DNA from: Escherichia coli
Lineage (GTDB): Bacteria; Pseudomonadota; Gammaproteobacteria; Enterobacterales; Enterobacteriaceae
NCBI RefSeq assembly: GCF_022846255.1
Contig: NZ_AP025682.1
Length of the DNA stretch: 64,000 bases
Direction: 5' to 3' (one strand)
Below, in pieces: positions 9,001 to 12,000 of this stretch. How positions within the stretch are numbered: the first letter of the stretch is position 1; each line of letters opens with the position of its first letter. Position numbers: made by a program.

Positions 9001-12000
9001 AAATACATTTGGAACTTATATTAAAAAGTGAAGGCCCTTATGAATTTTCGAAGATTAAAGAACTTTCAGGGCAATTACGACTTAAAGCTGAGTGGATCAA
9101 TGACACAACAGAAAAAATTGAGATAAAAACATCACATAGTGCTTGGCATTTTGATTATCATGTTCCTCAAATGGGGGATGGCGTAAATTCATTTACTCAT
9201 CCTCAATTCCATTTACAAAATGGAGGAAACAGGCTGACTGATAATTTAAATGACTATGGAGAGTTAATGATTCTTGATGCTCCAAGACTACCTTTACCTC
9301 CTATGGATGTGATATTAGCCATTGACTTTATTATTTCAAATTTCTTTGGTTCTATTTGGCAACAAGCATTATGTGATTCAGAATACATTGATGTAGTTAA
9401 AAGAGCACAAAAAGCATGGTGGAAACCTTATTATGAAGGTATAAGTCAACACTGGTCTGGCAATGGCTCAGGAATATCCAATATCCTAATTCCAAACCTT
9501 CTGTAGTGTATCAAAATCTGTTAACCATCTCCAATTACGAATAGCAATATTTATATAAAACTAATTTTTTATTTTAAACAACTTCAGCAAGGGCTAACTC
9601 TCAGCATCTCCTTCGGTGATACTTTGAGTTGCTCCTTGTTTTTTCGCCCTTTGGTTGAAAAAATTAAAAGCAAAACCAACCCTATACATTGACTTTTTCA
9701 GCATCTATCATATAAATAAAATAAGCATAATGGACATGCTTATTTTACTTTACTATATGAAAGGAGTTCATATGAATGATAGGAATCATACTTTTAATAA
9801 GTTCGAGCCATTCAGAAGTTGTAGCTATGAAAATTTTACTTCTGCTAAAACACTCTCCCAGCAGACACGTTCTCATTGTATTAGTATCAGATTAAATGAT
9901 GCCGAGTTATCTTACGTTGATGGCTTACGAGAAGATCTCAACCGTGCTGTTTGGATACGTATGTCAGCATTGAATCGTCTCCCTTCCAAAATTCCTGAAA
10001 TAAATCTAATTGTCTGGAAAGACCTTGCCAAAGCATCTCAGAATCTGAATAACCTCGTTCAGCATCTCAACACTAAATCACACGATAGTCCTTTTACTAT
10101 CACCGAAATTTATACGGTACAAAAAAGAATAAAAGCACTAAGAGATGCCCTTCTGTCAGCAAATCGATCTGTCAGTGATAAATAATGAAAGGGATGCAAA
10201 AAATCCGCAGAGGAAAGAGTTTTGCTGGTGTCGTCCTCTATGCGTTAAAGCCCGGTTCTCATCATAAAAAAGACCCTATCGTGATCGGTGGAAATATAAC
10301 GATAGTTGGCAATGCCGCTAAAGATCTGATCGCTGAATTTGATAGCACCAAACAGCTTCGCCCTGACGTGCAAAAGGCTGTTTGGCACAACTCGCTTCGC
10401 TTACCTAAAGGTGAATCACTAACGGCTAAACAGTGGTCTGAAATAGCAGATGATTACATGTCCCGCATGGGCTTCTCTGAAACGCATCTCAGATGCTACG
10501 TCCTACATGACGACGAAGATGGCCAGCACATCCATATCATCGCCAGCAGAGTGTCTCTTGATGCCGGAAAGCTCTACCTCGGCAGGAATGAGAACCTGGC
10601 AAGCACGAGAATAATTCAGCAACTTGAAAGAAATTACAATCTGACAAGAACCAAAGGGCCAGGAGCTAAAGCATCTACATCTTCTCTTTCCTCTAAACCG
10701 AAACATAAAAAATCACGTAATGAGGCTATGTTAGAGGAGAGAACTGGTGAACCATGCCCTAAATCCATCATCCAAAGGGCTATAGATTCGATAACATTAA
10801 ATCCTATAGCAATTGATGACTTCGTTGAAAAGCTGAATAGCATAGGGATTACGGCGAAAAGCAATATTTCTTCAACTGGCAAGATGAATGGATTTTCCTT
10901 TGAATGCAAAGGTGTTGTGTTCAAAGCTTCCCAGCTTGGCAAGAAGTATAGTTGGAAGAACCTGGAATCAATGATTTCAATGAATTACAACTCACACATT
11001 GGTGATGAAAAACCTGTCATCCCTGAACCTGCTGCCCATCGCAGCAACGAAGCTGTCATACCTATAGTGGAAGACTATTCTGATGAAAAGATTTACCCTG
11101 AGATAAGGGTACCCTTACCAAGACCTGACACAGCGCCCACAAAACCTACAAGCATGACAATGCGTTGGATCGCAACCATACCTTATCTTGTGAGTGTTAT
11201 TAGCGCACTTAAAACGATGCGTATCCCCTTTCTAAAGGCGTTCAATGGCCCAAGGAAGTTCTTTTCCGTGTCCATGATTCACCTGTCCTCTGTAAGCCTG
11301 AAACAGACCAAAACGAATAATTTCAAACCAAAAAGTTCCCACCAAAAGGCCCACAAGCCCCTTCTCCCCTGATTTCTCCACAGATAAACGATCGTTATAA
11401 TCGATCGATTTATTTATATTGATAGTCAATAACAATCAATAGGTAAATAATCGATCGGTACAAGCAATTTGCTATGTCCTTAGAAGTGTTCAAAATGTAC
11501 TTTCATGCATAAATCGGATAATAGGTTGATTTTACTAGCCTATTTTTCTATCCACGTATCGAACATGCAGGGACTGAAGTATGAGATATCTCATGATGAA
11601 GCGTGTAATGTTAGCAATCCTTCTTCCGTTTATTGTTGGATGTTTATTTGGTGCTAAAGCATTATCAGAGTATTGGGTTGTGTGGTTTTTTGTTTGTGCA
11701 ATGTTGATGATCACAGCCTGGGGCGTGTGGTTAAAAAATAAAAACAGAGGTTCCAGCTTCAGCTACCTGAATGATAATGAAGATGGTGTATTTATCTACA
11801 AATTTCATAATCAAGAGATGCGTTTAGATAAAGCCAAAAAAGAGCTTTATTTAAAAGATGGGTTAAACGAAAAAACCTACACTTTTTCCGATGTTGAAAG
11901 CTGGGAATATAAAATTAGCACAGGTGGTCAGATCCTCACTTCAGGTCTTAACCCTACAACTAACTTGATTAACAATAAGATTCTTGGTGAAAACATTAAT

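What the first reader, a model, noticed from the sequence alone, without database searches (positions are those of the whole stretch)
9507..11372. Mobilisation module (MobC + relaxase) with candidate oriT region: the island is probably an integrative mobilisable element
A MobC-like gene and a relaxase with a HxDxxxxHxH motif are translationally coupled. The 260-bp AT-rich region upstream (9507..9771) contains short inverted repeats and is the expected position for oriT. No type IV secretion or coupling protein genes are in the window, so transfer would need a helper conjugative element.
Basis: partly seen in the sequence, partly recalled or inferred. Interest (0 to 1): 0.5.

Follow-up and report, generated by a model that had tools for sequence, protein, structure and literature searches.

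The report
Mobilisable defence island at E. coli leuX
An 18-kb island inserted at the leuX tRNA gene of E. coli carries an intact relaxase, its small helper protein and a conserved transfer origin but no mating machinery, so it most likely spreads by borrowing another element's conjugation apparatus; this is a well-known kind of element.

Summary
The 137-aa gene at 9772-10185 and the 395-aa gene at 10185-11372 overlap by one base (TAATG).

- **Relaxase:** it is a Pfam PF03432 HUH relaxase (E 2.6e-26). Tyr19 and the triad H108-x-D110-x4-H115-x-H117 are invariant, and its best fold matches are solved relaxase domains.
- **Small protein:** it matches no Pfam model directly. Its distant relatives are NikA-like or MobC proteins, and it is 38% identical to MobC of the IncQ-3 plasmid pGNB2.
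- **oriT:** only 9586-9771 of the proposed region is conserved; 9507-9585 is cargo. It holds a near-invariant block AGCAAGGGCTAAC (9586-9598), a hairpin whose arms co-vary, a second hairpin, then a promoter and operator-like repeat. On the minus strand the block reads TTAGCCCTTGCT, 10 of 12 bases identical to the published putative IncQ-3 oriT core TTACACCTTGCT.
- **Island:** it spans 2946-21053. It is bounded by 18-bp direct repeats of the tRNA-Leu 3' end and has a P4-type integrase. No mating-pore or coupling-protein gene was found.

The integrative-mobilisable-element reading is supported by computation only. The element is a new member of a known kind. One less expected point is that the mobilisation module is linked to a three-recombinase cassette of the type described in the literature as non-mobilisable.

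The parts
9586..9598 (-). Near-invariant 13-nt block AGCAAGGGCTAAC. On the minus strand it reads GTTAGCCCTTGCT and is the candidate nic/relaxase-recognition core. The left limit of the conserved module lies here.
   Evidence: Homology among elements begins exactly at 9586. The block is near-invariant in 47 aligned sequences. It is present upstream of mobC in Pseudomonas, Acidithiobacillus, Gallionella and Burkholderiales loci and in plasmids pGNB2 and pHNGDW697-2. Bases 9586-9597 on the minus strand match 10 of 12 bases of the putative IncQ-3 oriT core TTACACCTTGCT (PMC7557826). It is the only exact copy in the window.
9596..9630 (.). Hairpin 1: imperfect inverted repeat AACTCTCAGCATC / GATACTTTGAGTT, 10 of 13 pairs, with a 9-nt loop.
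   Evidence: There are 25 distinct sequence variants across loci that keep complementarity. Examples are AACTCAGC/GCTGAGTT against AACTGAGC/GCTCAGTT, and AACCAAAAGAAGC/GCTTCTTTTGGT. Mean pairing is 0.80 within a sequence against 0.66 between variants, and 0 of 10000 permutations reach the observed value. It is predicted to fold in single-stranded DNA on both strands.
9631..9663 (.). Conserved GCTCCTTG followed by hairpin 2, TTTTTTC (9639-9645) / GAAAAAA (9657-9663), enclosing GCCCTTTGG. CCTTGTT (9634-9640) also pairs with AGCAAGG (9586-9592).
   Evidence: Alignment A5 shows compensatory variants such as CTTTTAT/ATAAAAG and CTTTTTA/TAAAAAG, read directly from the alignment.
9689..9750 (+). Inferred promoter (TTGACT 9689-9694, 16-nt spacer, TATAAA 9711-9716) overlapping a 15-nt inverted repeat, 9714-9728 / 9736-9750. 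This is a candidate operator for the ribbon-helix-helix protein.
   Evidence: The hexamers were read from the sequence. The inverted repeat is I1 (93% complementary). TTGAC and ATAAGCAT are conserved in A4. Function is inferred.
9772..10185 (+). 137-aa relaxosome accessory protein of NikA/MobC type: predicted ribbon-helix-helix N-terminus plus a helical hairpin.
   Evidence: with the top PDB fold hit being PcfF of pCF10. It lies immediately upstream of the relaxase in about 73 of 77 loci. dN/dS is 0.34-0.41.
10185..11372 (+). 395-aa HUH relaxase: conserved catalytic region (residues 1-260) and a variable, low-confidence C-terminal tail.
2946..2963 (.). Distal att repeat: copy of the 3' end of tRNA-Leu. 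It marks the left end of the island.
   Evidence: Direct repeat D4, 18 of 18 bases. The G+C drop begins at about 3000. Homology of the left flank to other strains ends at 2965.
21030..21114 (-). tRNA-Leu(CAA), at the locus known in E. coli as leuX. The proximal att repeat lies at 21036-21053.
   Evidence: ARAGORN; repeat D4; same locus in RefSeq genomes.
18289..20840 (-). Integration module: P4-type tyrosine integrase (19593-20840), DUF6387 protein (18612-19523) and a small helix-turn-helix protein (about 18289-18492). The last is possibly an excisionase, by inference.
   Evidence: NF007246 at E 6e-72. RefSeq annotation of the identical genes.
13358..17905 (-). Cassette of three overlapping recombinase-like genes (401, 441 and 543 aa) plus a 132-aa gene. 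It belongs to the conserved backbone together with the mobilisation module.
   Evidence: Two of the proteins match tyrosine-recombinase models. The third has no Pfam hit but carries an R...HxxR...Y-like C-terminus, read. Co-occurrence with the relaxase is shown.
3686..9506 (+). Cargo on the predicted leading side of oriT: N6-adenine methyltransferase, a GHKL/histidine-kinase-like ATPase and two unknown proteins.
   Evidence: This region is replaced by other defence genes in related islands.

Best explanation
Window 9586-11372 is the mobilisation module of an 18.1-kb integrative mobilisable element (2946-21053) inserted at tRNA-Leu(CAA), the leuX locus. The proposed mechanism follows; only the presence of the parts is shown, and every functional step is inferred. 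(1) The island is excised as a circle by recombination between its 18-bp att repeats, using its P4-type integrase. (2) The 137-aa ribbon-helix-helix protein binds repeats in oriT, and probably also the operator-like repeat over its own promoter, and helps the relaxase open the DNA. (3) The relaxase uses Tyr19 and the metal-binding triad H108/H115/H117 to nick one strand next to hairpin 1. The most likely site is on the minus strand inside TTAGCCCTTGCT (9597-9586), near TTG|CT. In that case the defence cargo at 3686-9506 enters the recipient first and the mob genes enter last. (4) The relaxase-DNA complex is handed to the coupling protein and mating pore of a co-resident conjugative plasmid or ICE, because the island encodes neither. 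(5) In the recipient the strand is recircularised at the hairpin/nic and the island integrates at leuX. The nearest characterised relatives are the MobC plus MobA/RepB modules of IncQ-3 plasmids such as pGNB2, which PLSDB types as MOBP. Some IncQ-3 plasmids were mobilised in triparental matings with the RK2 system, but the helper for this island is unknown.
Against: There is no experimental evidence for excision, nicking or transfer of this or any closely related island. The accessory protein fails Pfam MobC directly. The relaxase scores far below the curated NCBIfam TraI/MobP cut-off (70.6 against 250 bits). The IncQ-3 oriT core is itself only putative, assigned by homology. Because AGCAAGG and CCTTG(C/T)T form an inverted repeat, a CCTTG motif follows hairpin 1 on both strands, so the nicked strand is not settled. 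The relaxase C-terminal 135 aa is low-confidence in the model, differs between elements and has no plasmid homologue, so no helper can be named. Some IncQ-3 plasmids were not mobilised by the RK2 system.
Confidence: 0.76

Rival explanations
1. The module is an inactive relic. The island was once mobilisable but is now fixed in the chromosome, and the genes persist only through recent ancestry.
For: Decayed copies exist. In strain KSC1031 the relaxase is a frameshifted fragment next to a broken integrase. An orphan oriT-like copy without mob genes lies beside tRNA-Sec in strain RM10410. Only 1 of 5426 E. coli genomes carries this exact island. No helper is known.
Against: Both reading frames are intact. 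dN/dS is 0.17-0.41 against homologues that are 90% and 58% identical. The catalytic residues are invariant. The non-coding oriT keeps hairpin complementarity through sequence change. The same backbone is found with different cargo at three chromosomal sites and in many genera, which requires repeated horizontal movement.
Confidence: 0.12
2. The conserved upstream element is a transcriptional control region (promoter-upstream or operator sites, or a terminator of the upstream cargo) and not an origin of transfer.
For: It lies directly upstream of a promoter-like TTGACT-16-TATAAA. Ribbon-helix-helix accessory proteins commonly autoregulate. Hairpin 2 is followed by an A/T-rich run. No nick has been mapped.
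Against: The most conserved part (9586-9598) lies about 100 bp upstream of the -35 hexamer, at the far edge of the module. It is kept across relaxases that are only 37-50% identical while the promoter region is not. It coincides with the motif proposed as the oriT core in IncQ-3 plasmids. In several loci it sits 1.5-4 kb from mobC yet on the same strand, which does not fit a promoter element. Rfam finds no RNA family there. The two roles are not exclusive, since oriT regions often overlap mob promoters.
Confidence: 0.08
3. The HUH protein serves the element's own replication or recombination after excision (rolling-circle initiation or relaxase-mediated integration) and not conjugative transfer.
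Against: The top five fold matches are all conjugative relaxases. The protein lacks the primase part. It is paired with a relaxosome accessory protein. In IncQ plasmids the relaxase domain is described as the mobilisation function (PMC7557826).
Confidence: 0.04

Closest known systems
IncQ-3 plasmid mobilisation module (pGNB2, pBRST7.6 and relatives): mobC plus mobA/repB plus oriT
   Same: The gene order is oriT, mobC, relaxase, with the two genes overlapping. MobC is 38% identical and the relaxase domain 40% identical over 260 aa. Upstream of mobC, pGNB2 has AGCAAGGTGTAAC where the island has AGCAAGGGCTAAC. The published putative oriT core TTACACCTTGCT matches in 10 of 12 bases. PLSDB types pGNB2 as MOBP.
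   Different: The island relaxase has no primase domain and has an unrelated 135-aa tail. There are no repA/repC replication genes. The element is chromosomal and integrative. The hairpin next to the core is much stronger than in pGNB2.
R64 (IncI1) NikA/NikB and RP4 TraJ/TraI relaxosomes (MOBP)
   Same: A ribbon-helix-helix accessory protein is encoded just upstream of a PF03432 relaxase with an N-terminal Tyr and an HxDx4HxH motif. Of the 66 aligned sequences, 37 match the NikA-like Pfam family. From my own knowledge of these systems, an inverted repeat is followed within about 8 nt by a pyrimidine-rich nick region resembling YATCCTG|Y.
   Different: The similarity is weak: the NCBIfam TraI/MobP score is 70.6 bits against a cut-off of 250. 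The relaxase is much shorter. There is no associated mating-pore gene cluster.
RSF1010/R1162 MobA-MobC (MOBQ)
   Different: Only 12% identity in the structural alignment. The Pfam family differs (from my own knowledge, RSF1010 MobA belongs to MobA_MobL). The oriT consensus NWACCNNTAAGTGCGCCCTYNN (PMC3832669) is not present here.
Integrative mobilisable elements carrying defence genes at E. coli hotspots (Hochhauser et al. 2023) and PIMEs (2026 preprint)
   Same: Integrated at a tRNA gene, carrying an integrase plus a small helix-turn-helix gene, a relaxase and a large defence-gene cargo, and dependent on a helper.
   Different: PIMEs are defined by int, alpA, a replicase and trbJ/trbL. Neither a replicase nor trbJ/trbL was found in this island. 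The Hochhauser survey lists such elements as a category and does not describe this module or its oriT.
GInt / Tn6571-family and strand-biased circularising elements (three recombinases plus a small protein)
   Same: The conserved backbone contains three overlapping recombinase-like genes followed by a small gene, the organisation that defines those elements.
   Different: Those elements are described as lacking any mobilisation system, whereas here the cassette travels with a relaxase, accessory protein and oriT. Sequence homology to ginABCD or to intA-tfp-intB-srap was not tested.

Membership tests
HUH conjugative relaxase, Pfam PF03432 (MOBP-type) | Significant match to the relaxase nuclease-domain profile | tested here: met
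   PF03432 at E 2.6e-26, residues 19-153 covering model positions 1-132 of 132.
HUH conjugative relaxase, Pfam PF03432 (MOBP-type) | N-terminal catalytic tyrosine (motif I) | tested here: met
   Y19 is invariant in 27 homologues and aligns with a Tyr of the pGNB2 relaxase. Its catalytic role is inferred.
HUH conjugative relaxase, Pfam PF03432 (MOBP-type) | Histidine triad HxDx4HxH (motif III) | tested here: met
   H108, D110, H115 and H117 are invariant.
HUH conjugative relaxase, Pfam PF03432 (MOBP-type) | Relaxase fold | tested here: met
HUH conjugative relaxase, Pfam PF03432 (MOBP-type) | Score above the curated NCBIfam TraI/MobA(P) cut-off | tested here: not met
   70.6 bits against a cut-off of 250. 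It is a distant member, not an equivalog of RP4 TraI.
HUH conjugative relaxase, Pfam PF03432 (MOBP-type) | MOB class assigned by MOBscan/CONJscan profiles | not tested
   The profiles were not available. The only indirect evidence is that the 40%-identical pGNB2 relaxase is typed MOBP by MOB-suite.
HUH conjugative relaxase, Pfam PF03432 (MOBP-type) | Site- and strand-specific nicking of oriT | not testable with these tools
   Needs biochemistry.
MobC/NikA relaxosome accessory protein | Direct match to Pfam MobC (PF05713) or NikA-like (PF21983) | tested here: not met
   No Pfam hit even at E <= 10, and no NCBIfam hit.
MobC/NikA relaxosome accessory protein | Homology to recognised family members | tested here: met
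   The profile search found 445 relatives at E <= 0.001. Of 66 aligned sequences, 37 match NikA-like and 27 match MobC. Pairwise identity to pGNB2 MobC is 38%, E 1e-20, including the NLNxxxxHLN motif.
MobC/NikA relaxosome accessory protein | Ribbon-helix-helix N-terminus followed by a helical region | tested here: inconclusive
   The model (pLDDT 81.6) has helices at 43-53, 58-66, 76-102 and 108-136, preceded by an extended ISIRLN segment. The top PDB hit is the accessory factor PcfF, but it is weak (prob 0.89, E 0.09). A monomer model cannot show the dimeric ribbon.
MobC/NikA relaxosome accessory protein | Encoded immediately upstream of its relaxase | tested here: met
   One-base overlap here. 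The two genes are adjacent in about 73 of 77 loci.
Integrative mobilisable element | Discrete integrated element with integrase and flanking att repeats | tested here: met
Integrative mobilisable element | Own relaxase and/or oriT | tested here: met
   The relaxase is shown. The oriT is inferred from conservation and from the IncQ-3 motif.
Integrative mobilisable element | Lacks a mating-pore system and coupling protein | tested here: met
   No such gene appears among the island ORFs or in the RefSeq annotation of the identical island. Window 39-64 kb is core chromosome. Window 21-39 kb was not searched directly; its ORFs match core genes annotated in other strains.
Integrative mobilisable element | Excision and helper-dependent transfer | not testable with these tools
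   Needs PCR for attP/attB and mating assays.
IncQ-3 plasmid | repA helicase and relaxase-primase fusion, with autonomous replication | tested here: not met
   The relaxase aligns only to residues 4-252 of the 813-aa pGNB2 protein. No repA gene is present in the island. All E. coli copies are chromosomal.
PIME (Pseudomonadota integrative mobilisable elements) | Co-occurrence of int, alpA, a replicase, trbJ and trbL | tested here: not met
   The definition is given. Only int and a small helix-turn-helix gene are present, with no replicase or trbJ/trbL.
GInt / strand-biased circularising element | Three recombinase genes plus a small fourth gene in one operon | tested here: met
   ORFs 16700-17905, 15385-16710, 13757-15388 and 13358-13756 overlap or abut. 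Two of them match tyrosine-recombinase models.
GInt / strand-biased circularising element | Sequence homology to ginABCD or to intA-tfp-intB-srap | not tested
   No reference sequences were at hand.

The most novel reading that the evidence does not exclude
The conserved unit is not the P4-type integrase island. It is the block comprising DUF6387, the helix-turn-helix gene, the three-recombinase cassette, the relaxase, the accessory protein and oriT. This block recurs with different P4-type integrases, in both orientations, at leuX, thrW and ssrA. If the cassette is a true GInt or strand-biased-circularising-element relative, these would be the first elements of that class with their own conjugative mobilisation module. 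That would offer an answer to how elements described as 'non-mobilisable' move between cells. It would also define a family-wide oriT signature (AGCMAGGGCTAAY, hairpin, YCCTTG) shared with IncQ-3 plasmids across Gamma- and Betaproteobacteria.
Probability: 0.3. Interest if true: 0.55.

Novelty: new member of a known kind. Interest (0 to 1): 0.38.

Why it matters
Islands at leuX and other tRNA hotspots hold much of the variable anti-phage and restriction repertoire of E. coli, and how they move is often unclear. This one has a complete, selectively maintained relaxase, accessory protein and oriT set related to IncQ-3 plasmids. That gives a concrete, testable route for the spread of its defence cargo, which sits on the predicted leading side of oriT. 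The oriT signature found here is conserved from Enterobacterales to Burkholderiales. It could be used to find related islands, including relaxase-less copies that may be mobilised in trans. The consistent link to a three-recombinase cassette is the one feature that goes beyond routine annotation.

Tried and rejected
- **Sequence searches of the two proteins against solved structures** found nothing useful.
- **Megablast and blastn of the module and of the oriT region against plasmids** found nothing. The plasmid relatives appeared only by protein search.
- **The relaxase C-terminal tail** has no plasmid homologue, so it gave no clue to the helper.
- **Word-indexed protein search of the accessory protein** reached only relatives that are at least 74% identical and have no Pfam annotation. 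The exhaustive profile search was required.
- **A MOBQ-type nick in CGCCCT (9645-9650, plus strand)**, by analogy with GCGCCCT of RSF1010, was considered and ranked lower. That segment varies in diverged relatives, whereas the block at 9586-9598 does not and coincides with the IncQ-3 motif.
- **Membership in the PIME family** was rejected because there is no replicase, trbJ or trbL.
- **A structured RNA** was rejected: Rfam gave only sub-threshold noise.
- **Column-wise pair counting on the MAFFT alignment** was not usable because hairpin length varies. Arms were paired from their ends in a script instead.
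Full report
**What is at the coordinates.** Two genes lie on the plus strand. The first encodes 137 aa (9772-10185) and has AAAGGAG five bases before its ATG. The second encodes 395 aa (10185-11372). The stop TAA of the first shares its last base with the ATG of the second. RefSeq annotates the same two genes in a 99.6%-identical island of E. coli TUM11353. Tight linkage is typical of the family: a 1-nt overlap in strain FDAARGOS_144, a 4-nt gap in WS4437A-1, and a 17-nt overlap in plasmid pGNB2.

**The relaxase.**
- It matches Pfam PF03432 over the full model (E 2.6e-26).
- It matches NCBIfam TraI/MobA(P), Bacteroides MobB and MbpB models only weakly, well below their curated cut-offs.
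- In an alignment of 27 homologues (55-93% identical), Tyr19 and H108, D110, H115 and H117 are invariant.
- The conserved region runs to about residue 260 and includes a second conserved segment, STGKMNGFSFE...FKASQLGK.YSW.
- The remaining roughly 135 residues differ between elements except for a short RW[IL]E.IPY motif.
- A structure model is confident for residues 11-140 and 190-260 and disordered beyond 267.
- dN/dS over the first 260 codons is 0.17 and 0.29 against two homologues.

**The accessory protein.**
- It has no direct Pfam, NCBIfam or PDB sequence match.
- A word-indexed search reached only close relatives.
- An exhaustive profile search found 445 relatives at E <= 0.001.
- Of 66 aligned sequences (the window protein plus 65 of those relatives), 37 match NikA-like PF21983 and 27 match MobC PF05713.
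- The consensus contains the RHH-like R.HCVSVRLN..EL and the NLNQI motif. The window protein has ISIRLNDAEL and NLNNLVQHLN.
- It is 38% identical (E 1e-20) to the annotated MobC of pGNB2.
- The model shows an extended segment, two short helices and a long helical hairpin.
- The best, though weak, PDB match is PcfF, the relaxosome accessory factor of pCF10.
- It sits immediately upstream of the relaxase in about 73 of 77 loci from one-per-species genomes.

**The oriT candidate.**
- Aligning the intergenic regions of six E. coli elements shows unrelated sequence up to 9585 and sharp onset of homology at 9586.
- A profile of 9586-9688 finds the element in 46 of 77 genome loci. It is always on the relaxase strand and upstream, usually 100-200 bp before mobC and sometimes 1.5-4 kb away.
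- The layout is as follows:

| Feature | Coordinates | Note |
|---|---|---|
| AGCAAGGGCTAAC block | 9586-9598 | near-invariant |
| Hairpin 1 | 9596-9630 | arms co-vary |
| GCTCCTTG | 9631-9638 | conserved |
| Hairpin 2, TTTTTTC/GAAAAAA | 9639-9663 | compensatory variants |
| Promoter, TTGACT-16-TATAAA | 9689-9716 | inferred |
| 15-nt inverted repeat | 9714-9750 | operator-like |

- Hairpin 1 occurs in 25 sequence variants that keep complementarity, including double compensatory changes.
- Pairing within a sequence (0.80) exceeds pairing between variants (0.66), and no permutation out of 10000 reaches it. Relatedness of the sequences inflates such tests.
- The 13-nt block, with at most three substitutions, lies 110-480 bp upstream of the gene pair in all 19 checked loci from Pseudomonas, Acidithiobacillus, Gallionella, Burkholderiales and unclassified MAGs (one labelled Paceibacterota). 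In those loci the relaxase is only 37-50% identical. My own estimate of the chance expectation is about 0.09 per locus.
- The block also lies upstream of mobC in plasmids pGNB2 and pHNGDW697-2.
- A subset of seven Enterobacterales loci lacks it within 700 bp.

**Link to known oriTs.**
- Protein search of plasmids found the closest relatives among small IncQ-type plasmids (pGNB2, pBRST7.6 and the pKPSH series). Identity is about 37-40% over 255-260 aa, and their upstream gene is annotated MobC.
- PLSDB types pGNB2 as mobilisable, with an IncQ2 replicon and a MOBP relaxase.
- A study of 29 IncQ-3 plasmids reports a conserved putative oriT core, 5'-TTACACCTTGCT-3' (PMC7557826). This is the reverse complement of the pGNB2 block. 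It matches the minus strand of window 9586-9597 (TTAGCCCTTGCT) in 10 of 12 bases.
- That study found that two plasmids transferred in its bi- and triparental matings, which used the RK2 system of pRK2013, and that three did not transfer.

**Which strand is nicked.** I place the nick on the minus strand, 3' of hairpin 1 and near TTG|CT. Four reasons support this.
- It is the most conserved segment.
- It coincides with the IncQ-3 motif.
- Homology among elements ends two bases beyond it. This fits what I know of relaxases, which mainly read sequence 5' of the nick.
- It makes the cargo the leading region and the mob genes last. That is the usual geometry, as stated in bioRxiv 10.64898/2026.01.13.699239.

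The assignment is an inference. Because AGCAAGG and CCTTG(C/T)T are inverted repeats, a similar motif follows the hairpin on the plus strand too.

**The island.**
- tRNA-Leu(CAA) lies at 21030-21114.
- An 18-bp copy of its 3' end recurs at 2946-2963.
- G+C is 0.30-0.42 between the repeats and about 0.50 outside.
- A P4-type integrase (E 6e-72) abuts the tRNA.
- Homology of window 1-3700 to other strains ends at 2965. To the left lies another island with a BrxR/WYL regulator and a truncated integrase.
- The ORFs of the island are an N6-methyltransferase, a GHKL/histidine-kinase-like ATPase, two unknowns, the mob pair, a DUF4755 protein, a small lipoprotein, two small unknowns, three recombinase-like genes, a helix-turn-helix gene, DUF6387 and the integrase.
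- None is a mating-pore or coupling protein.
- Window 39-64 kb is core chromosome.

**Family context.**
- In E. coli the module is found in 233 of 5426 complete genomes. All 238 places are chromosomal, and megablast found no plasmid match.
- Related islands at leuX, thrW and ssrA share the backbone but carry other cargo. Examples include methylases with HNH endonucleases, McrB/LlaJI, a TIR protein, a SIR2 protein and ABC-three-component systems.
- The P4-type integrases are only 34-45% identical between sites. At ssrA the remaining block is inverted relative to the integrase.
- The conserved unit is therefore DUF6387, the helix-turn-helix gene, the three recombinases, the small genes, the relaxase, the accessory protein and oriT.
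- The three-recombinase cassette lies downstream of the relaxase in about 28 of 77 genome loci.
- Its organisation matches GInt/Tn6571-type elements and strand-biased circularising elements. The literature describes both as lacking a mobilisation system (PMC5385486, PMC10214605, PMC10121019). Homology to those families was not tested here.

**Comparison and verdict.** Integrative mobilisable elements carrying defence genes at E. coli hotspots are a recognised category (PMC10121019). The recently named PIME family is a different one, because it requires a replicase and trbJ/trbL. This island is a new member of a known kind. Its mobilisation module is an IncQ-3-like MobC plus MOBP-type relaxase set without the primase. 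No step of excision, nicking or transfer has been shown.

Noticed in passing
window 13358-17905 (- strand): Three overlapping recombinase-like genes (401, 441 and 543 aa) plus a 132-aa gene, with the organisation of GInt/Tn6571 or strand-biased circularising elements. The cassette travels with the relaxase module in E. coli islands at leuX, thrW and ssrA and in about 28 of 77 genome loci. Such elements are described in the literature as non-mobilisable.
   Followed up: partly
window 1-2965: A second, tandem island ends at the distal att repeat. It has a BrxR/WYL-type regulator (547-1440) and a truncated P4-type integrase (1949-2818). In other strains a different island follows the same junction (L090).
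   Followed up: partly
L006 5001-5093 (E. coli RM10410, next to tRNA-Sec): An orphan copy of the oriT-like element (block plus hairpin 1) with no mobC or relaxase within 5 kb, in a decayed island beside a tyrosine integrase. It could be a relaxase-less island mobilisable in trans.
   Followed up: no
window 3686-9506: A four-gene cargo: an N6-adenine methyltransferase, a 769-aa protein with an N-terminal GHKL ATPase part resembling BbrUII/HgiDII restriction enzymes and a C-terminal histidine-kinase-like part, and two proteins with no family match. It is possibly an unclassified methylation-linked defence system.
   Followed up: partly
window 11581-12473: A DUF4755 membrane protein and a 96-aa lipoprotein (signal MKKTMLLLLASMSLTGC) lie just downstream of the relaxase. 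Homologues occupy the same position in many loci of other genera. Their function is unknown.
   Followed up: no
window 10776-11372 (relaxase residues about 197-395): DNA homology to the 92%-identical module of other E. coli islands stops at 10776. The relaxase C-terminal part is swapped between elements and shares only a short RW[IL]E.IPY motif. It has no plasmid homologue and might set helper specificity.
   Followed up: partly
window 11389-11460: CGATCG-containing palindromes (CGATCGTTATAATCGATCG at 11389-11407, and a further ATCGATCGG near 11451) lie directly after the relaxase stop codon. The scan flags the first as terminator-like on both strands.
   Followed up: no
window 39001-64000: The core-chromosome part of the window is at best about 98% identical to most complete E. 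coli genomes (only 17 records reach 99% or more). The host is therefore a somewhat divergent E. coli lineage.
   Followed up: no
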